In this document: positions 2,140 through 56,550 of the stretch, piece by piece
Layout: each line of letters begins with the position of its first letter
Position numbering within the stretch: position 1 is the first letter of the stretch
Source of the DNA: a virus
Virus record (IMG/VR): IMGVR_UViG_3300045988_147517
Location: 32,001 to 96,000 of that record
Reading direction: 5' to 3' (one strand)
DNA length: 64,000 nucleotides
The notes under the pieces: generated by a model
Databases searched by the model: none
The model's input: the letters and a program-made list of their open reading frames with translations, nothing else
Told to the model about the DNA's origin: nothing
Program-made: the position numbers and the translations under genes

Positions 2140-5100
2140 TAATCACACCCACTATAGCCGCAATCATCGTTAATGCAATGACCGCAACCACCTTCCGCAA
2201 CATAGGTTCTCTGTCCACATTTTGGACAAATTCCTAAATTGCTATTCTCCACTTCATTCTTTAGGTTTGTAACACCGCTAAGGAAATCTGTCAATTCTTT
2301 CATAGTGTTCTGTTCTTCACAAGTTTTACAGCGCGGCTCTGGGATATCAAAAACTCTAGAAACCGCTTCATTCACAATCTCTTCTTCACTATAATCATCA
2401 TCAATCAACTCTTCTTTGATTTGATTTGCCATCTCTTGCAATGCGATTCCCACTGCGGCAGGACAGCAATTCCCCGGCGAAACATCATGTTTAGTCGCCC
2501 TTCGCACCATATAACTAACGCAACCCGGGCAACTCTTTGCTTGGTCTACAATTCCCTCTACTGTTCCACCAAGGCGCATCGCATAAGAAATCATGCGAGA
2601 GCCAAATACCATCCAAGAATTACAGCCGCCCTCTGAGCCTTTGCTTAAAAATGTTTCGCAAAGTTCGCCATCTACTGGGTCAAAGAAAGCTGTTGTGTGT
2701 AAAGAGCCACACCCAGTAACAAGTTTGTGTTTTCTTCCCACAACATCGTCATAAACTTGAACCACATCACCTCGATTAAGTACCTGTAGAGGACGGGTTT
2801 CTTCTTTTGGCGGCTCTTCTTCTTGGTTGTTCACAAGGACACCAGCCCGGTCACAGCCATCTCTATAAACTGTAATGCCTTTAAGGCCTTGTTTCCACGC
2901 CTCATAGTATAATTCAAATACATCTTTAACTGTGGTATATTCAGGGAGATTTACTGTAGAACTAATTGATGCATCGATATGTTTTTGCCAAGCCGCCTGC
3001 ATAGCAATACGTTCTTTATACGGAATCATTGGCGCTGTTACAAACCAACTAGGTAAATCCGCTTCATTATCAATATTATTTTCCTGCATATATTCTTCTA
3101 CAATTGGAGTATATACTTTATACCAATACTCTTGACCATGAAGTGATTCTGTTTTTCTCATATAAGAATTGGCGAAAATGGGTTCCATCCCACCGGATAC
3201 ACCTAGCATTGTGCTAGTACTGCCCGTTGGGGCCACAGTCAACAGTTGCAAATTTCTCAACCCATATTTACGAATATCTTCATATAATTTGTCTGTTACA
3301 TGTGAATTTAAGAAAGGAGAATCTAGCACCGCGCCAGAAAACCTCGGGGCTGGGCCGAATTCTTTTGCTAACTCCATAGATGATTCGAGAGCGCATGAAA
3401 CGATGAATTCACCAATATTATCAGCTAATTTTAAAGACTCCTCACTTCCGTATCTTATTTTCAATTTAATCAGTAAGTCAGCCCATCCCATAACTCCTAG
3501 GCCGATTTGCCTGTAATTTCTTACACTTTCACGTTGATATTCTAGGGGGTGTAATTCCAACCCTTCATCTAAAACTTCATTCAAATAAATTACTGCATTT
3601 TTGACAGTAAATTTCAAAGAATCCCAATCAACTTTTCCATCTTTTTCAAATTGCGCCAAGTTAATTGAGCCAAGTAAACAACTACCTCCTTCTGGTAATG
3701 GTTCTTCTGCACCTTACCACACATAGTTTCCTATGCCATCTAATATAGATGTTGTAGTCTGGACTATATCATCCGTTATTTTATAAAAATAACAGGTGGG
3801 CGCTGGACAATAAATTGCCACTTAGTCTCTGAACCTTCCCCTGTTCGGGGCTTGGATGCTGATTGCCCAATCCATACATTTTTTAACATTCACGCCTAGA
3901 TTTATTTCATTCTTACGTTGTAGTATGTATGGCTCTAAGGGGTTTCCAGCAGTTCACCCACTTTTAAATCCGCATACACTTTACGGATTAACCCCACCAT
4001 ATTGAAAATCAGGGTCTTCACTTAATAAATTATAGTCATTAATTCTATCCCAGAATAATAATCCGGGTTCAGCCTGCCGCCAATTCATCTCTGCTAAACG
4101 CATAAATACATCTTGAGCATTAATTACTTTGGTAATTTCTTCTCCTGTCTCTTGACGATAATATTTTAATGTATATTCTTCATCATTGATAACAGCATTC
4201 ATAAATTCATCTGTTACTTTAATTGAGATATTTGCCTTAGTAACTTTTCCAGCCTCCGATTTTAAATCAATAAAATCTTCAAGGTCTGGATGGCTACAAT
4301 CAAGGCTAATCATCAATGCCCCCAATATGGACTATCTCTTACCACTAATCTAGTGGCTCGGGCGCTAATGTAGTCTTATTGTTATCCTCAACTACTAGTC
4401 TCTGCACGTCCTATATACCTTTTACATTATATAGTTTCGCTCAGGGTTCTTGGGTCTTCCCTGAATTCACCCAATTCAAGACGCAGGGCATTAGCTTTGT
4501 TATACTTTCTATATAATACAATAAATGAATCGTTAGGATATATATAATCTAAAAATTTTAAAACATCTTTTTTGCTAGAAAATCCTAATATAAAACAATC
4601 TTCTTTTCCTTTTGGCTTTATCTTAGATGATACTCCAACCTCATCTATTAAAACATTCTGAACACCTTCTAATAAACGGTATTGAGAAGTAAATGAAATT
4701 CTTTGCCATATCCTATTTCTGTCTTTCCTTCTTCCCCAAGTAATACACCCATCTCCATCAAAAAACCCAAGAATTAAATATCTTTTAAGGTCTTTTCTTA
4801 CAATTGGCAAATGACGGCTGTTCTTTTTTCCACCATATTTATTAATATCTGTAAGTATATTTTTATTATATATTGTATATCTTGCTCTTGGGAACCTCCT
4901 AGATTCCCTATCTAAGTATGTGGTTTCATGAACATTTCCACCAATAATTTGAGATATATAATATAGTATTTCTTTATCAGCTAATGAAACAGATAACTCA
5001 ACACACTTATCTCCAATGTATCCATCCGCTAATATAAATCCTAAGATATATGCTTTTTCTGGGGTATCAATCTTATTAAACATGTATTCATTTTTATACT

Positions 5101-13856: not shown

Positions 13857-14041
13857 ATGTACCTCCTTTTTTCTATAATAATTATACCACACCCCATGCA
13901 TTTTGTCAACAGGGTATGGTATTTTTCTTTAAATATTTCTAAATTCAAAAGCAATCCTAATTTAATTAATTACAAATATTTTTATAAAGCTCTATTTCTT
14001 AAAAATGCTTTAAAAAGCAAACAATTATAAAAATTTATTTT

Positions 14042-15083: not shown

Positions 15084-15163
15084 ATTTAGGCACATTTTCA
15101 CGCTTCTCGCTCAAGCACTACAATAAGTACAGTATCAACGAGCTATCCCCGTCCTAACAGCGG
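15084..15163 (-). ncRNA. TnpB-associated guide-scaffold RNA (omega-RNA-like), orphan copy A
   Basis: Minus-sense CCGCUGUUAGGACGGGGAUAGCUCGUUGAU-[ACUGUA CUUAU UGUAGU]-GCUUGAGCGAGAAGCGUGAAAAUGUGCCUAAAU. It is homologous to the RNA directly downstream of tnpB and has no ORF. Confidence 0.7.
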
Positions 15164-15300
15164 TTCTTGCTAACGATTTGTCAATCTTTGATTAACTCCT
15201 TTTCTCTCTGGGAATCAAATTCAAAATCCTCATTCGATTCTGGTATTTCATAAGGGTCATGGTCATAGCACCACATACAACCATCACATTCCTTTGTTCC

Positions 15301-15329
15301 ATTATAACATAATAGCGCCAATATGTCAA
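15301..15329 (-). promoter_or_regulatory. sigma-70/A-type promoter
   Basis: TTGACA (15329-15324), 17-nt spacer, TATAAT (15306-15301). It lies upstream of scaffold copy A. Confidence 0.65.
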
Positions 15330-17121: not shown

Positions 17122-17676
17122 TTACATGATGTGGCCGTATCTTTGCAAAAGTCTTAAACCGTCAACCATTTCGCTTAAAGACTCGTCAAAATTATCAGAA
17201 GTTTCATCCTTACTTTCTTCTTCTTGTTCTTCCTCTTCGTCATATCCTATCATATCAACTATAAGCGCAAATGAAGTGAATATTTCTTCCTCAGAAACTT
17301 CTTCATTGTTTTCAATCTTTTCTTCAATTTTATTAAGATATTCTAAAGCATGTAAAAGTTTAAATGCTTCTGATATTTCGGAATTTTCATCCTCCAATTC
17401 AATGGCTGTCCTTTTTGTAGAGCCACAAGCTTTAGGTTCTGCATCGATGCACCATTCAGAGCTTACTTTTAATAATTCGCCGTCTTCCGCCTCTACAATA
17501 TAAGACTTTTCATTTTCACCCAATAATTCATCATGCCAAAATTCTCCTACTATCGGCATCATATCCATTTTATCATATGGCATTTCGATGCCCATTTCAT
17601 TGGTTAAAGCTTTCCCGGCTTCATAGACATTCTTACCTACAACCTCAATCATTTTTTCTTTACTAAATACTAGCAT
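17122..17676 (-). CDS. hypothetical acidic protein
   Basis: 184-aa ORF. Confidence 0.5.
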   Translation of the reverse strand: MLVFSKEKMIEVVGKNVYEAGKALTNEMGIEMPYDKMDMMPIVGEFWHDELLGENEKSYIVEAEDGELLKVSSEWCIDAEPKACGSTKRTAIELEDENSEISEAFKLLHALEYLNKIEEKIENNEEVSEEEIFTSFALIVDMIGYDEEEEQEEESKDETSDNFDESLSEMVDGLRLLQRYGHIM

Positions 17677-17707
17677 TTTGTTCTCCTTTTTTATATAAAT
17701 TTTAAAA

Positions 17708-17785
17708 ATTAAATATAATTCATGTTAACTTTAAACAATGGTAAAAGTCAATCAAATTTAAATACATTCTAATTTAAACACAGAT
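17708..17785 (-). repeat. two degenerate copies of the CRISPR-like repeat downstream of scaffold copy B
   Basis: Plus-strand 17756-17785 ATTTAAATACATTCTAATTTAAACACAGAT and 17708-17737 ATTAAATATAATTCATGTTAACTTTAAACA, compared with the consensus ATTTAAATACATCTCATGTTAAACACAAAC. Confidence 0.5.
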
Positions 17786-17850
17786 TCAACGCTTCTCGCT
17801 CAATAACCTTACGGTTAAGTATCAACGAGCTAACCCCGGTTTAACCTCGG
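17772..17850 (-). ncRNA. TnpB-associated guide-scaffold RNA, orphan copy B, with its own promoter
   Basis: Minus-sense CCGAGGUUAAACCGGGGUUAGCUCGUUGAUAC-[UUAACC GUAA GGUUA]-UUGAGCGAGAAGCGUUGAAUCUGUGUUUAAAU. It starts about 7 nt after a perfect -10 box. Confidence 0.7.
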
Positions 17851-17857
17851 TTCTTTG

Positions 17858-17886
17858 ATTATAACATATAATTTTTGTTATGTCAA
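17858..17886 (-). promoter_or_regulatory. consensus promoter driving scaffold copy B
   Basis: TTGACA (17886-17881), exactly 17 nt, TATAAT (17863-17858). No ORF lies between it and the RNA. Confidence 0.7.
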
Positions 17887-18264: not shown

Positions 18265-18492
18265 ATTCAAATACATCTCGTGTTAAACACAAACTTTGGC
18301 ACTTGATGTCTATTTTTTCTGGAAATTAAAATTTAAATGCATCTCATGTTAAACACAAACCCCGGCATCTATTACCGGAGACAAACAAATAGTAAGATTT
18401 AAATACATCTCATGTTAAACACAAACCCTAATCGTCTATATCTGCGCCTTTTAGAATATCTAATTTAAATACATCTCATGTTAAACACAAAC
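18265..18492 (-). CRISPR. CRISPR-like mini-array: 4 x 30-nt repeats, 3 x 36-nt spacers
   Basis: Repeats are at 18265-18294 (2 mismatches), 18331-18360 (1 mismatch), 18397-18426 and 18463-18492, with an exact 66-nt period. In crRNA sense the repeat is GTTTGTGTTTAACATGAGATGTATTTAAAT, containing the hairpin ACAU-GAG-AUGU. The spacers are unique. Confidence 0.75.
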
Positions 18493-18513
18493 TATAGTAT
18501 TTATCTCATTCTC

Positions 18514-18591
18514 ATTACGCTAACATTTGATGCTTCTCACTCGATAGTCTAATGACTAAGCATAAATGAGCTATCCCCGGTTTAACCTCGG
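18514..18591 (-). ncRNA. guide-scaffold RNA (omega-RNA / tracr-like), copy C, immediately 3' of tnpB
   Basis: It begins 11 nt after the tnpB stop: CCGAGGUUAAACCGGGGAUAGCUCAUUUAUGCU-[UAGUC AUUA GACUA]-UCGAGUGAGAAGCAUCAAAUGUUAGCGUAAU. The 3' boundary is uncertain. Confidence 0.7.
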
Positions 18592-18602
18592 TTGGTGGTA
18601 AG

Positions 18603-19751
18603 TTAATTTACCAGCCGCTTTCCTTCTTTTAGAATATTTTTAGCGGCATTTATATCCCTATCCTCTTTGTAGCCACAAACCGGGCATACAAAGGTTTTTT
18701 CGGATAAAATATTCTCTTCTATTACATGTTCACACTTATGGCACGTCTTTGAGCTTGGGAAAAATGTATTTACTTGTACATATTTATGGCCATATTCTTC
18801 TGCTTTATACGCTAACATTTGGCAGAAATTAAAGTACCCTATATCGGTAATAGCAGAATTAAAATTTTTCTTTGTTCTATTTAAAAACCCTTCTTTCTCT
18901 TTATTCTGTTTCATCATTTCTTGCAATTTAAGTTTCTCAACCGCAATAATTTTATTATCTCTCGCAATCTTCCTACTCAAATTATGTGCGAAATATGCTC
19001 TTTGTCTAGCAATTTTCTGATGAACTTTCGCTACTTTAATACGTTGTTTTTCGTAATTTTTACTACCACGTTGACAATGACTTAATTTGCGTTGCTCTCT
19101 GGCTAAACGTTCTTTGCTTTTCTTATAGTAGTTAGGATAATCTGGAATACTTCCTTTATTATCCACAAAGTAATCTCGTGATGAAAAATCAAGCCCGATG
19201 GATTGGGATTTCCCTTTCTTCTGTTTCATTTTAAATTCAATGCAGAAGGCAATATAGTATTCCCCTGATGGTGTCCTAGAAAGTGTTGCATCACATATTT
19301 TTGCATCATCTGGAATTGGCCTATCAACAATCATTTTGACGGTTGTTGACAATTTTGGAATTTTAACTCTATTACCTTCAATACGCAACCCATTACCGCC
19401 AACTGTATTTCTCGTTTTAAAGCTATCCCTACATCTACCACGCTTCTTAAATTTAGGAAATCCGGGCTTTTCCCCATTTTTTAATCTTCTAAAAAAGTTT
19501 TTATACGCCTGTTCTAAATCCCGCTGAACAAAATTTAAGGCATGTGCATCCACTTCTTTTAACCAAGTATTATCTGCTTTATATGAAGCGTAGCTCGTCT
19601 TTAATGACTTCCCCGTCTCTTCATAATGCTTTATTTTGTCAGCAAGCATAGCATTCCAAATCCATCTGCAAGCGCCAAATGTTTTATTTAAATATTCTCT
19701 CTGTTCTTTATTTGGGTAGATACGATATTTATAACCTCTAACTACTAACAT
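18603..19751 (-). CDS. tnpB: TnpB-like RNA-guided RuvC nuclease (IS200/IS605 OrfB family), stand-alone
   Basis: Contains YKYRIYPNKEQ, RuvC-I IGLDFS, RuvC-II IAVEKL, the zinc ribbon CHKCEH..CPVCGY and RuvC-III DRDINAAKNI. The protein is 382 aa. Confidence 0.9.
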   Translation of the reverse strand: MLVVRGYKYRIYPNKEQREYLNKTFGACRWIWNAMLADKIKHYEETGKSLKTSYASYKADNTWLKEVDAHALNFVQRDLEQAYKNFFRRLKNGEKPGFPKFKKRGRCRDSFKTRNTVGGNGLRIEGNRVKIPKLSTTVKMIVDRPIPDDAKICDATLSRTPSGEYYIAFCIEFKMKQKKGKSQSIGLDFSSRDYFVDNKGSIPDYPNYYKKSKERLAREQRKLSHCQRGSKNYEKQRIKVAKVHQKIARQRAYFAHNLSRKIARDNKIIAVEKLKLQEMMKQNKEKEGFLNRTKKNFNSAITDIGYFNFCQMLAYKAEEYGHKYVQVNTFFPSSKTCHKCEHVIEENILSEKTFVCPVCGYKEDRDINAAKNILKEGKRLVN

Positions 19752-19779: not shown

Positions 19780-19808
19780 ATTATATCATGTTGGCGCTTA
19801 CTTGTCAA
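19780..19808 (-). promoter_or_regulatory. consensus promoter of tnpB
   Basis: TTGACA (19808-19803), 17 nt (containing GCGCCAA, as in other promoters in this window), TATAAT (19785-19780). Confidence 0.7.
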
Positions 19809-20262: not shown

Positions 20263-20291
20263 ATTATAATACATTGTTTGCATGTTGTCAA
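20263..20291 (-). promoter_or_regulatory. consensus promoter
   Basis: TTGACA (20291-20286), 17 nt, TATAAT (20268-20263). Confidence 0.65.
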
Positions 20292-24029: not shown

Positions 24030-24058
24030 ATTATACAACAAAAGCGCCAATATGTCAA
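24030..24058 (-). promoter_or_regulatory. consensus promoter
   Basis: TTGACA (24058-24053), 17 nt, TATAAT (24035-24030). Confidence 0.65.
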
Positions 24059-28637: not shown

Positions 28638-28727
28638 TTAGTTAATTAAAATACCGCCAACATATTCAATATATTCGTATGCCGCCTTTGGCGATTCCAC
28701 AACATCATTTTTGCCAATCGTTTCCCA
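28638..28727 (-). pseudogene. orphaned ancestral 3' end of the upstream gene (diverged duplicate of 28826-28915)
   Basis: Ungapped hand alignment gives 68 of 90 nt identical to the real 3' end. It translates as WETIGKNDVVESPKAAYEYIEYVGGILIN*, against WDAIAKDDVIESPEKAYEYIETVGGILIN*. It retains the original stop, RBS and junction to the next gene. Confidence 0.75.
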
Positions 28728-28802
28728 ATTTAGGTGTACTAATGTACTTCTCACTCGATAGCATAGCTAAGCATAAATGAGCTAACCCCGTCCTAACAGC
28801 GG
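28728..28802 (-). ncRNA. TnpB-associated guide-scaffold RNA, orphan copy D
   Basis: Minus-sense CCGCUGUUAGGACGGGGUUAGCUCAUUUAUGCU-[UAGC UAU GCUA]-UCGAGUGAGAAGUACAUUAGUACACCUAAAU. It is followed directly by the orphaned gene fragment. Confidence 0.7.
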
Positions 28803-28825
28803 TTATTGTTGGTGCTATATAATTA

Positions 28826-29248
28826 TTAATTGATTAATATGCCGCCAACAGTTTCAATATACTCATAGGCTTTTTCAGGCGATTCTATAACATCATCTTT
28901 AGCAATCGCATCCCAAGAATATTTACCCGCATATCGGGTAAAAGCCTTTTGAAAATCAACACCTTTTTTATTTTTATACAATACAATTTCATCCCACATT
29001 CTTTGACTACTCACCACAATATTATCATGCGCCATGTTTACTATTGTATTCGGCCCCATAACTCTATACCCTTTAACGTCATGCGGGATTGTCCCAATGC
29101 CATGGCAATAATGACAAACACTTTGTAAAAGGGGGTATCCCGCTTTTAAACCACGAGCATACCCCTTACCACCACATTTCGGGCAACATACTTCATCTAC
29201 GCGAAACGTTCCTTCTTTAATATAATATACTTCGTCTCCTAGTTCCAA
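28826..29248 (-). CDS. DnaJ-type zinc-finger (CxxCxGxG) protein
   Basis: Contains CPKCGGKGY and CHYCHGIGT. Probable TTG start behind AAGGAGGG. Confidence 0.55.
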   Translation of the reverse strand: MELGDEVYYIKEGTFRVDEVCCPKCGGKGYARGLKAGYPLLQSVCHYCHGIGTIPHDVKGYRVMGPNTIVNMAHDNIVVSSQRMWDEIVLYKNKKGVDFQKAFTRYAGKYSWDAIAKDDVIESPEKAYEYIETVGGILIN

Positions 29249-55934: not shown

Positions 55935-55963
55935 TTGACATCAGTGTTAAGACATGCTATAAT
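55935..55963 (+). promoter_or_regulatory. consensus promoter upstream of the tRNA cluster
   Basis: TTGACA (55935-55940), 17 nt, TATAAT (55958-55963). Confidence 0.7.
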
Positions 55964-56131
55964 ATATGTATAGTGAATGAGAGATAACGATACACCGCTA
56001 CGGTGGTGATTGTATAGAGCTTGGTGTTAAGCTCATGACAGCAACTTAATTTTAAAACAGTCAAAACTTTGGTATGTGAGTTTATTAAATAGAATGCCTG
56101 CATTTCGTTTAAATTTTAGAGCATACCATAT

Positions 56132-56207
56132 TGGGGTATAGCCAAGTCGGTAAGGCACCAGACTTTGACTCTGGGATGCGTAGGTTCGAGTCCTTCTGCC
56201 CCAGCCA
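56132..56207 (+). tRNA. tRNA-Gln (anticodon UUG)
   Basis: Acceptor TGGGGTA/TGCCCCA, anticodon arm CCAGA-CTTTGAC-TCTGG, T loop TTCGAGT, encoded CCA. Confidence 0.85.
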
Positions 56208-56381
56208 ATAATTTGATAATATTTATATGCCCAGACAGCAAAATTAAAGTTTTTATTAAGCCAAAAAAAACATAAATTGGGCGTAGTTTTAATTTTTAAC
56301 CTCATTTCTTTGTGCGCTTACAGCAAACATTTTTGGATATTACTTTTAATAATACACCCAAAAAGCGCCCAGTCTTATTTT

Positions 56382-56455
56382 GCCACTATAGCATAACGGT
56401 AGTGCGAATGATTTGTAATCATTTTATCGGGGTTCGACTCCTCGTAGTGGCTCCA
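56382..56455 (+). tRNA. tRNA-Thr (anticodon UGU)
   Basis: Acceptor GCCACTA/TAGTGGC, anticodon arm AATGA-TTTGTAA-TCATT, T arm CGGGG-TTCGACT-CCTCG, encoded CCA. Confidence 0.85.
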
Positions 56456-56472
56456 TTTTATAATCAAACCAA

Positions 56473-56550
56473 CCGTTGTTAGGACGGGGATAGCTCGTTG
56501 ACACTTAACCATAAGGTTATTGAGCGAGAAGTACGTTAGTATGCCTAAAT
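56473..56550 (+). ncRNA. TnpB-associated guide-scaffold RNA, orphan copy E (plus strand)
   Basis: CCGUUGUUAGGACGGGGAUAGCUCGUUGACAC-[UUAACC AUAA GGUUA]-UUGAGCGAGAAGUACGUUAGUAUGCCUAAAU. It starts 17 nt after the tRNA-Thr CCA end, in the same orientation as local transcription. Confidence 0.7.

What the first reader, a model, noticed from the sequence alone, without database searches (positions are those of the whole stretch)
17708..17886. Scaffold copy B is an independent sRNA gene with a perfect promoter and two decayed repeat units
A perfect TTGACA-17-TATAAT promoter (17886-17858) places the transcription start about 7 nt before the CCGAGG start of copy B, with no ORF in between.

Downstream of its GUUUAAAU tail the sequence UAGAAUGUAUUUAAAU completes a degenerate copy of the array repeat (17756-17785). 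A second degenerate repeat follows 18 nt later (17708-17737).

This is either a fossil second array or a scaffold fused to its first repeat. Either way it links the scaffold 3' end and the CRISPR-like repeat by descent. It may show how an omega-RNA end can be duplicated into an array.
Basis: seen in the sequence. Interest (0 to 1): 0.7.

Follow-up and report, generated by a model that had tools for sequence, protein, structure and literature searches.

The report
Collapsed second guide-RNA cassette for TnpB
Copy B is the shrunken remnant of a second guide-RNA cassette (RNA scaffold plus mini CRISPR-like array) that serves a TnpB nuclease carried by a gut phage; deletions have turned it back into a single-guide, transposon-style RNA, so it records the loss of an array, not its birth.

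Summary
A perfect TTGACA-17-TATAAT promoter (17886-17858, minus strand) lies 7 nt upstream of a second copy of the TnpB guide-RNA scaffold. Two repeat-like units follow, matching the array repeat at 23/30 and 22/30, against 0.0-0.1 such hits expected by chance.

Related phage contigs settle what it is. In 11 loci the same promoter and scaffold B are followed by a 33-nt linker, two intact repeats, two 35/36-nt spacers and the same degenerate terminal repeat. The window's copy has lost the linker and most of the array. It is therefore a collapsed second tracr-plus-array cassette. The direction is array to single guide, not omega-RNA to array.

What remains has the layout of an unsplit omega-RNA: three scaffold helices, a 4-bp terminal stem, the pseudoknot tail AUUUAAAU and an 18-nt spacer. 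Three compact copies elsewhere in the window (C, D, E) have the same layout with a tetraloop.

Copy B has no terminator and is the 5' leader of the next operon. The promoter is one of 21 perfect ones in the window. I cannot decide whether the collapsed RNA still guides TnpB, and no target was found.

Verdict: a real feature, a new variant of a known kind (TnpB/TranC-like), of moderate interest.

The parts
17858..17886 (-). Promoter P_B: TTGACA, 17-nt spacer with an extended -10 TG, TATAAT. Predicted transcription start near 17851.
   Evidence: It is conserved in L011, L012, L014 and L016 with a 17-nt spacer, and in L062 with a 16-nt spacer.
17786..17854 (-). Scaffold B: helix H1 (CCG, 9-nt loop, CGG) plus nested helices H2 and H3. 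This is the tracr-like, omega-RNA-like core.
   Evidence: Covariance model hit of 87.6 bits. 97.6% of cells pair, 7 pairs change on both sides, and 0/500 shuffles reach the observed covariation.
17756..17792 (-). Collapsed terminal hairpin and tail: GCGU (17792-17789), 21-nt loop (17788-17768), AUGU (17767-17764), pseudoknot tail AUUUAAAU (17763-17756).
   Evidence: Alignment A1 shows a deletion of about 34 nt relative to intact orthologues.
17738..17755 (-). 18-nt spacer remnant, or candidate guide: UUGAUUGACUUUUACCAU.
   Evidence: No target was found. Five exact hits in IMG/VR were judged to be chance.
17708..17737 (-). Degenerate terminal repeat of array B.
   Evidence: 22/30 to the repeat consensus. 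By my count it is 27/30 identical to the terminal repeat of intact B arrays, at the same distance from the ORF184 ribosome-binding site.
17122..17676 (-). ORF184, the first gene of the operon read from P_B. Copy B is its 181-nt leader.
   Evidence: No terminator-like site lies between them.
18603..19751 (-). TnpB-like nuclease of 382 aa with its own perfect promoter at 19808-19780. It is the only tnpB in the window.
   Evidence: Pfam HTH_OrfB_IS605, OrfB_IS605 and Cas12f1-like_TNB. Aligns end to end with ISDra2 TnpB 8H1J, E 6.5e-58, with the RuvC D/E/D positions and CxxC...CxxC present. tblastn finds only this gene.
18265..18595 (-). Module A: scaffold A (18595-18527), distal anti-repeat plus linker (18526-18494), and four 30-nt repeats with three 36-nt spacers (18493-18265).
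15084..15167 (-). Copy C: compact, unsplit omega-RNA-like unit of type 2 (tetraloop GAAA, tail GCCUAAAU).
   Evidence: Conserved in L012.
28728..28806 (-). Copy D: compact type-2 unit (GUAC-AUUA-GUAC, tail ACCUAAAU).
56469..56550 (+). Copy E: compact type-2 unit, 17 nt after a tRNA. Its H2/H3 core is 93% identical to that of copy B.

Best explanation
Copy B is what remains of a second, separately promoted tracr-like scaffold plus mini-array cassette for the phage's single TnpB nuclease.

Shown:
- In sister phage lineages the cassette reads promoter, scaffold, 33-nt linker carrying the distal anti-repeat, repeat, spacer, repeat, spacer, degenerate terminal repeat, then ORF184.
- The window's lineage has lost the linker, one repeat-spacer unit and half of the remaining spacer.
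- This leaves promoter, scaffold helices H1-H3, a 4-bp terminal stem closing a 21-nt loop, the tail AUUUAAAU that pairs with the H1 loop as a pseudoknot, an 18-nt spacer and a vestigial repeat.
- That is the guide-pseudoknot-stem layout of an unsplit omega-RNA. The compact copies C, D and E in the same genome have it with a tetraloop.

Inferred:
- P_B transcribes copy B as the 5' leader of the ORF184 operon.
- The leader can still be bound by TnpB and trimmed into a one-guide RNA carrying the fixed 18-nt spacer.
- If so, the cassette has reverted from dual-RNA CRISPR style to omega-RNA style.
For: Orthology and direction of change:
- Eleven loci from different samples (L012, L014, L016-18, L056-59, L068, L070) have an identical 275-nt B module with linker and intact array. 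The window has 160 nt.
- The linker is homologous in every A module of five lineages. Its absence in the window's B is therefore a deletion.

Architecture:
- Full units fold into H1, H2/H3 and a long terminal hairpin. The hairpin pairs the scaffold 3' end and linker start (GCAU..AUGUUA) with the repeat (UAACAU..AUGU).
- All 11 units examined share T5'(4 nt)-loop-T3'(4 nt)-tail(8 nt). The loop is 4 nt (compact copies), 21 nt (window B) or 55-58 nt (array modules).
- The basal stem and the H1-loop/tail pseudoknot are 100% paired. Changes on both sides occur, for example UUAAA/UUUAA versus UUAGG/CCUAA. 0/500 shuffles reach the observed covariation.
- This matches the ISDra2 omega-RNA, described as a 'natural sgRNA' with a tetraloop and a pseudoknot next to the guide (PMC10097598).

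Integrity of copy B:
- It has the best covariance-model score in the window, and its H1-H3 helices are fully paired.
- All 7 mismatches of its first repeat lie in positions 1-18. The last 12 nt (T3' plus tail) match 12/12. By my own arithmetic, C(18,7)/C(30,7) = 0.016.
- The promoter is conserved in three lineages.

The protein looks active: the RuvC D/E/D residues and the zinc finger are present.

Precedent: array minimisation followed by fusion of tracrRNA and half a repeat, re-creating an omega-RNA, is described for sigma-associated TnpBs (PMC10691335).
Against: - There are no transcript data, and no protospacer for the 18-nt spacer was found in the window, the fetched loci or INPHARED. The five exact IMG/VR hits are at chance level: four share one promoter-like context in unrelated environmental contigs.
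- Several independent lesions look like ordinary decay.
- The minimum-free-energy fold of copy B pairs the tail with the loop (UUUAAAU/AUUUAAA). Forcing the basal stem costs about 5 kcal/mol. The terminal region alone folds at -2.5 kcal/mol, against -9 to -18 for intact units.
- The promoter would be kept anyway, because it drives ORF184.
- Function of the compact copies is itself unproven. The 'guide' of copy E carries a 2-nt indel between relatives.
Confidence: 0.55

Rival explanations
1. Inert fossil. Copy B is a dead remnant of the second cassette. It is still transcribed only because P_B is needed for ORF184 and the genes after it. The RNA neither loads TnpB nor guides anything.
For: - There are at least three separate lesions: the linker and distal anti-repeat are deleted, one repeat-spacer unit is lost, and the spacer is cut from 35 to 18 nt.
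- Five of six bases in the segment that paired with the deleted anti-repeat have changed (my reading).
- The terminal hairpin is energetically almost gone.
- No target was found.
- Relatives show that the system decays readily: tnpB is frameshifted in L068, truncated in L070 and deleted in L012.
Against: - Every element shared by the compact unsplit copies is intact in copy B: H1-H3, the 4-bp basal stem, the pseudoknot tail and a spacer of at least 16 nt.
- The mismatches avoid the last 12 nt of the repeat.
- The scaffold core is 93% identical to copy E. That suggests recent exchange among copies rather than free drift.
Confidence: 0.35
2. Copy B is a primordial omega-RNA whose 3' end is beginning to duplicate into an array, that is, a nascent array.
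For: Its layout (scaffold, short loop, tail, 18-nt guide, one further repeat-like unit) is what an early duplication would look like.
Against: - Positional orthologues in the most widely sampled lineage carry a full linker and array.
- That linker is homologous to the linkers of all A modules, including the 72%-identity clade that has no B at all.
- The terminal repeat is orthologous to the terminal repeat of intact arrays.
- The short form is therefore most simply explained as derived.
Confidence: 0.05
3. Extra tracr supply or decoy. Copy B exists to deliver additional scaffold RNA from a strong promoter, either to pair in trans with crRNAs from array A or to titrate TnpB.
For: It has a strong, independent and conserved promoter. 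In relatives that lack tnpB and scaffold A (L012), scaffold B is the only type-1 scaffold left next to the arrays.
Against: In the window, copy B lacks the distal anti-repeat (AUGUUA...) and the conserved linker core. It keeps only 4 nt complementary to the array-A repeats plus the pseudoknot loop. Pairing in trans would therefore be weak.
Confidence: 0.05

Closest known systems
TranC (transposon-CRISPR intermediate) systems, type V-U-like, including the phage-borne CauTranC9
   Same: A TnpB-like effector lies next to a short CRISPR-like array. The tracrRNA and crRNA correspond to the two halves of a split transposon right-end (omega) RNA. There are no adaptation genes nearby, and at least one such system is phage-encoded (bioRxiv 10.64898/2026.03.27.714800).
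   Different: - The effector here is 382 aa and aligns end to end with ISDra2 TnpB (E 6.5e-58). It matches LaTranC only over the RuvC part (E 7e-18).
- Repeats are 30 nt with 36-nt spacers, whereas 38-bp repeats are reported for clade 9.
- The same genome also carries three compact unsplit copies and a second, collapsed cassette.
- Clade membership could not be tested because no TranC clade sequences were available to me.
ISDra2 TnpB omega-RNA (IS200/IS605)
   Same: It has the guide-pseudoknot-stem layout. The crRNA-like and tracrRNA-like halves are joined by a tetraloop, and the pseudoknot forms between the nucleotides just 5' of the guide and a region near the 5' end (PMC10097598). Copies C, D and E, and in outline copy B, follow this plan.
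   Different: No TnpA and no transposon ends were detected around tnpB here. The scaffold starts after the stop codon instead of overlapping the ORF. In modules A and (in relatives) B, the tetraloop is replaced by a 55-58-nt insert and the 3' half is reiterated as an array.
Sigma-factor-associated (RpoE-linked) TnpB clade, described as having a re-emerged omega-RNA
   Same: The array is minimised and then tracrRNA fuses with a half repeat. This re-creates a single RNA that keeps the 3' end of the former repeat (PMC10691335). It is the same evolutionary path that I infer for copy B.
   Different: In that clade the nuclease is inactivated and the RNA is regulatory. Here the RuvC residues are intact, the event is recent (sister lineages still have the array), and an intact array module A coexists with the collapsed one.
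Cas12f tracrRNA:crRNA
   Same: It is a miniature TnpB-derived effector with two repeat:anti-repeat duplexes and a pseudoknot. The array lies downstream of the gene, and no cas1/cas2 genes are associated (PMC10097598, PMC10691335).
   Different: Cas12f proteins have expanded REC/WED domains and act as dimers. The protein here matches Cas12f structures only weakly (E about 1e-8 to 1e-10).

Membership tests
IS200/IS605 TnpB (OMEGA) nuclease | HTH, OrfB_IS605 (RuvC) and zinc-ribbon (TNB) domain architecture | tested here: met
   All three Pfam families score above their curated cut-offs. The protein aligns end to end with ISDra2 TnpB.
IS200/IS605 TnpB (OMEGA) nuclease | Catalytic RuvC D-E-D triad and CxxC...CxxC zinc finger | tested here: met
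   In the alignment to 8H1J, GLD, AVE and DRD align with the ISDra2 D191, E278 and D361 motifs, and CHKC...CPVC is present (my reading of the alignment).
IS200/IS605 TnpB (OMEGA) nuclease | Residence in a mobile element: TnpA or transposon ends, and multiple copies | tested here: not met
   There is a single tnpB in the window. It is expressed from a phage early-type promoter 28 nt upstream, and no TnpA was seen among its neighbours. The TTGAT just upstream is not conserved in the 72% clade.
omega-RNA (transposon right-end RNA) scaffold | Homology to transposon-borne omega-RNAs found downstream of tnpB genes | tested here: met
   Model R1, built only from phage copies, hits the 3' flanks of Agathobacter tnpB genes in L020 and L021 at 49-53 bits, E about 1e-11, over the full model length.
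omega-RNA (transposon right-end RNA) scaffold | Guide-pseudoknot-stem layout, with the guide directly 3' of the scaffold | tested here: met
   The basal stem and pseudoknot are 100% paired, with compensatory changes across 8 distinct units including copy B. Caveat: the mini-alignment was assembled by hand.
CRISPR array (type V-U / TranC-like) | At least three near-identical direct repeats separated by unique spacers of constant length | tested here: not met
   This result is for copy B in the window: two degenerate units (23/30 and 22/30) separated by 18 nt. The feature is met for module A (four repeats, 36-nt spacers) and for module B in relatives.
CRISPR array (type V-U / TranC-like) | tracrRNA with an anti-repeat complementary to the repeat | tested here: not met
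   This result is for copy B in the window: the distal anti-repeat and linker are deleted. The feature is met for module A and for intact B modules.
CRISPR array (type V-U / TranC-like) | Adaptation genes (cas1/cas2) or evidence of spacer turnover | tested here: inconclusive
   I did not screen for cas genes systematically. Spacer sets differ completely between lineages whose TnpBs are 96% identical, yet they are identical within a lineage across samples.
TranC clades as published | Phylogenetic placement within a named TranC clade | not testable with these tools
   No clade sequences are held. Only LaTranC structures are available, and they match weakly.
Independent sRNA gene | Own promoter and own terminator | tested here: not met
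   The promoter is present. No terminator-like site lies between 17857 and 17677, and the ribosome-binding site of ORF184 follows the last repeat directly.

The most novel reading that the evidence does not exclude
One TnpB-sized nuclease in this phage is served at once by three forms of guide RNA:
- unsplit compact omega-RNAs (C, D, E);
- a split tracr plus CRISPR-like array (module A);
- a cassette caught reverting from the array form to the single-guide form (copy B).

If so, the omega-RNA/CRISPR 'split' would be freely reversible in nature and could be tested with a single natural protein. The solo copies might act as trans-guided homing or marker-exclusion devices against co-infecting relatives.
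Probability: 0.3. Interest if true: 0.8.

Novelty: new variant of a known kind. Interest (0 to 1): 0.58.

Why it matters
[quoted passage not shown] That idea rests largely on comparisons between distant systems and on engineered splits.

Here one natural genome family holds the unsplit form, the split-plus-array form and a collapsed intermediate. All share one scaffold family, they exchange sequence with each other, and there is one intact TnpB. Sister lineages differ only in the state of cassette B.

This gives matched natural constructs for three questions:
- Which RNA elements does a TnpB need in order to use crRNAs?
- Is the distal repeat:anti-repeat helix dispensable?
- How are mini-arrays lost?

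For annotation, it also shows that short, decayed 'repeat' remnants beside an omega-RNA scaffold can be array fossils rather than proto-arrays.

Tried and rejected
1. Close relatives in GenBank phages. Megablast of three parts of the window found nothing relevant. Relatives came only from metagenome assemblies and two IMG/VR contigs.

2. Seed searches for the scaffold (CCGAGGTTAAACCGGGGWTAGC). JGI metagenomes and GTDB genomes gave no hits.

3. Spacer targets.
- blastn-short of 13 spacers against the window and all loci found only the spacers themselves.
- Concatenated spacers against INPHARED found nothing.
- Exact 20-mers of both intact B spacers and of window A spacer 1 in IMG/VR found only self hits or none.
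- The 18-mer of copy B has five exact IMG/VR hits. Four share one promoter-like context (TTGACT-17-TATAAT) in unrelated environmental contigs. I judged these to be chance.

4. tnpB plus scaffold A as a mobile insertion element.
- L012 lacks exactly that block, with the breakpoint right after TTGAT, the ISDra2 TAM.
- I rejected the idea because TTGAT is absent in the 72% clade.
- L012's array A equals that of the L062 type, which has tnpB, so L012 is a deletion derivative.
- There is no room for a left-end hairpin.

5. The window's terminal repeat as a recombinant of repeat 2 and the terminal repeat. The signal is too weak (2 versus 3 mismatches in the 5' half), so I dropped the claim.

6. Rfam. 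There were no family hits, only sub-threshold CRISPR-DR3 matches on the opposite strand of the array A repeats.

7. Conserved linker core (UAAAUAC) as a second anti-repeat for GUAUUUA. This is possible, but the covarying H1-loop/tail pseudoknot explains that tail better. I left it open.

Full report
**Setting**

Everything discussed lies on the minus strand, in an early-type region of a phage contig of about 119 kb from a metagenome. The contig is ENA ERZ19635868; locus L007 is the same DNA. GC content is about 32%.

Reading 5' to 3' on that strand, the region contains:
- a perfect promoter (19808-19780);
- a 382-aa TnpB-like ORF (19751-18603);
- scaffold A (from 18595), then a linker of about 33 nt;
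- four 30-nt repeats (GTTTGTGTTTAACATGAGATGTATTTAAAT) with three 36-nt spacers (18493-18265);
- ORF113 (18237-17896);
- the finding itself;
- ORF184 (17676-17122).

The protein has the three TnpB Pfam domains. It aligns end to end with ISDra2 TnpB (8H1J, E 6.5e-58), with the RuvC D/E/D positions and the zinc finger in place. It is the only tnpB in the window.

**Checking the observation**

- The promoter TTGACA-17-TATAAT at 17886-17858 is exact and has an extended -10 TG.
- CCGAGG begins 7 nt after the -10 box.
- No minus-strand ORF of 20 aa or more lies in the 181 nt before the ATG at 17676.
- Copy B is 78% identical to copy A over 69 nt.
- The two repeat-like units score 23/30 (17756-17785) and 22/30 (17707-17736) against the array consensus. 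A Markov null expects 0.0 and 0.1 such hits in the whole window.

- The window holds 21 perfect promoters of this kind (0.05 expected), so perfection is the rule for this phage and not a mark of copy B.
- No terminator-like site lies between copy B and ORF184. Copy B is a leader, not a self-contained sRNA gene.

Most of these promoters sit 24-43 nt from a start codon. The long leaders are the ones that hold RNA genes, either tRNAs or scaffold copies.

**What the relatives show**

The TnpB has a cluster of near-identical relatives (96-100% identity) on more than 100 metagenomic contigs. A second clade sits at 72% identity. The next relatives are ordinary transposon TnpBs at 45% or less.

In the commonest lineage, position B reads:
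- the same promoter;
- scaffold B;
- a 33-nt linker (GTTAGCACAACAAAAATGGGATAAATACTATAG);
- an intact repeat, a 35-nt spacer, an intact repeat and a 36-nt spacer;
- a degenerate terminal repeat;
- the same ribosome-binding site and ORF.

This 275-nt module is identical in 11 loci from different samples: L012, L014, L016-18, L056-59, L068 and L070. The window has 160 nt.

Alignment A1 shows that the window lacks about 34 nt (the linker and the first bases of repeat 1). It also lacks one repeat-spacer unit and about half of the remaining spacer. The window's second unit is the orthologue of the terminal repeat; by my count the two are 27/30 identical.

The linker is homologous in every A module of five lineages, including the 72% clade, which has no B at all. 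The short form in the window is therefore derived. 'Fossil second array' is right, and 'scaffold fused to its first repeat' describes how the deletion left it.

**RNA architecture**

Full units fold into three parts:
- a small 5' hairpin, H1;
- a nested pair of helices, H2 and H3;
- a long terminal hairpin in which the scaffold 3' end and linker start (GCAU..AUGUUA) pair with the repeat (UAACAU..AUGU).

Across five scaffold sequences, 97.6% of cells pair and 7 of 17 pairs change on both sides. None of 500 shuffles reaches the observed covariation.

A covariance model of H1-H3 finds exactly five copies in the window:

| Copy | Coordinates | Strand |
|---|---|---|
| B (best score) | 17854-17786 | - |
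| A | 18595-18527 | - |
| E | 56469-56537 | + |
| C | 15167-15097 | - |
| D | 28806-28741 | - |

The same model also hits the 3' flanks of transposon tnpB genes in Agathobacter genomes, at 49-53 bits. The scaffold is therefore a genuine omega-RNA scaffold.

All 11 units I examined obey one plan: H1, H2/H3, GAA, a 4-nt strand, a loop, the complementary 4-nt strand, an 8-nt tail, then the variable sequence. The loop length differs by type:

| Unit type | Loop length |
|---|---|
| C, D, E, C in L012, solo copy in L008 | 4 nt |
| Array modules | 55-58 nt |
| Window copy B | 21 nt |

The 4-bp stem is paired in every unit and covaries. The tail pairs with the H1 loop, and this pairing switches on both sides between the two scaffold types: UUAAA/UUUAA in type 1 and UUAGG/CCUAA in type 2. 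This helix is 100% paired, and 0/500 shuffles reach the observed covariation (on a hand-assembled mini-alignment).

This is the guide-pseudoknot-stem design solved for the ISDra2 omega-RNA. There a tetraloop joins the crRNA-like and tracrRNA-like halves (PMC10097598).

It follows that the CRISPR-like repeat is the 3' strand of the terminal hairpin plus the pseudoknot tail. The 'linker' is an expanded loop.

**State of copy B**

Copy B has lost the distal anti-repeat and the conserved linker core. The matching part of its repeat has also changed (CATGAG to ATTAGA).

It keeps H1-H3 fully paired, the basal stem (GCGU/AUGU), the tail AUUUAAAU and an 18-nt spacer. ISDra2 TnpB uses a 16-nt guide.

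All seven mismatches to the array repeat fall in positions 1-18. The last 12 nt match 12/12. By my own arithmetic the probability of this is 0.016.

The H2/H3 core of copy B is 93% identical to copy E. It is only 75% identical to its positional orthologue in L016. The copies therefore exchange sequence.

Against function:
- The unconstrained fold pairs the tail with the loop.
- Forcing the basal stem costs about 5 kcal/mol.
- The terminal region is worth only -2.5 kcal/mol, against -9 to -18 in intact units.

**Mechanism, and how sure I am**

| Statement | Status / probability |
|---|---|
| Copy B derives from a second tracr-plus-array cassette by deletions | about 0.9 |
| It now has the layout of an unsplit omega-RNA | Shown at the level of sequence and structure |
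| P_B transcribes it as the leader of the ORF184 operon | Inferred; no terminator present |
| The leader still binds TnpB and yields one fixed guide | Inferred, about 0.5 |

The main rival is an inert fossil (0.35). A nascent array and a trans-acting tracr supply are each unlikely (0.05 each).

No target was found for any spacer. The five IMG/VR hits to the 18-mer look like chance.

**Comparison with known systems**

The system as a whole works like a TranC or type V-U system: a TnpB-like nuclease with a tracr and crRNAs derived from a split right-end RNA. A TnpB-sized, phage-borne example (CauTranC9) has been reported.

I cannot place it in a TranC clade. It is far closer to ISDra2 TnpB than to LaTranC.

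The path taken by copy B, array minimisation and then tracr-repeat fusion, has a described precedent in the sigma-associated TnpB clade (PMC10691335). There the nuclease is dead. Here it appears intact, and the intact sister state still exists.

**Verdict**

The 'fossil array' reading is confirmed. The 'how arrays are born' reading is reversed. The 'independent sRNA gene' reading is only half right.

Novelty: a new variant of a known kind. Interest is moderate. Most of it comes from the context: five scaffold copies in three structural states around one TnpB. That context offers a natural test bed for the RNA-splitting model.

Noticed in passing
window 15084-15167 (-), 28728-28806 (-), 56469-56550 (+): There are three further scaffold copies (C, D, E) that the finding does not mention. 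They are compact, unsplit omega-RNA-like units with a tetraloop. Their H1 loop (UUAGG) and tail (CCUAAAU) covary together relative to copies A and B. Copy C is conserved in L012, and copy E is 100% conserved in L072.
   Followed up: partly
window 55935-56550 (+): A perfect promoter is followed by tRNA 56132-56204, tRNA 56382-56452 and, 17 nt later, scaffold copy E. In this natural tRNA-guide-RNA arrangement, tRNA processing could set the 5' end of copy E. In the relative L072 the scaffold is identical, but the sequence after the tail has a 2-nt poly-A indel.
   Followed up: partly
window 28638-28900 (-): Copy D lies between the 3' end of a 140-aa ORF (28826-29248) and a diverged duplicate of that same 3' end (about 28711-28638). 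This looks like an insertion that brought its own copy of the gene end. I did not determine the insertion boundaries or a TAM.
   Followed up: no
L012 394-620 (IMGVR_UViG_3300045988_118521): This relative lacks tnpB and scaffold A altogether. The tnpB promoter runs straight into the linker and array A, while cassette B is intact. Other relatives have a frameshifted tnpB (L068, 212 + 188 aa) or a truncated one (L070, 344 aa), again with intact B. No orthologous TnpB was found anywhere in IMG/VR.
   Followed up: partly
window, 21 sites (e.g. 890-918, 13881-13909, 15301-15329, 19780-19808, 20263-20291, 24030-24058): There are 21 perfect TTGACA-17-TATAAT promoters against 0.05 expected, and 19 of them are on the minus strand. 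Most lie 24-43 nt upstream of a start codon. The pattern resembles an early or host-takeover gene region of a large Firmicutes phage.
   Followed up: partly
window 17786-17854 vs 56469-56537; L016 4877-4943: The scaffold copies are mosaics. The H2/H3 core of the window's B is 93% identical to copy E but only 75% identical to its positional orthologue. The core of L016 B is closest to copy C, and that of the window's D is closest to A. This suggests gene conversion among copies. Repeats and anti-repeats also differ between lineages whose TnpBs are 96% identical.
   Followed up: partly
L008 4963-5043: A phage of the 72% clade carries a solo compact type-1 unit 3 kb upstream of its tnpB. The unit reads ACAU-GAUA-GUGU with tail AUUUAAAC. 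It is the unsplit counterpart of that clade's array repeat 3' end.
   Followed up: partly
window 3739-4020 (-): A group I intron (Rfam RF00028, 67.6 bits) lies in a local GC-rich stretch.
   Followed up: no
P0135 / L019: A TnpB of the 72% clade is deposited in NCBI as WP_418583517.1 from Holdemanella porci, on a 123-kb contig. This is a clue to the host of this phage family.
   Followed up: no
L016 5166-5200: In the common lineage the ORF184 start codon is ATA instead of ATG, so the ORF is called 8 codons shorter (176 aa). The gene directly downstream of cassette B therefore also varies between lineages.
   Followed up: no
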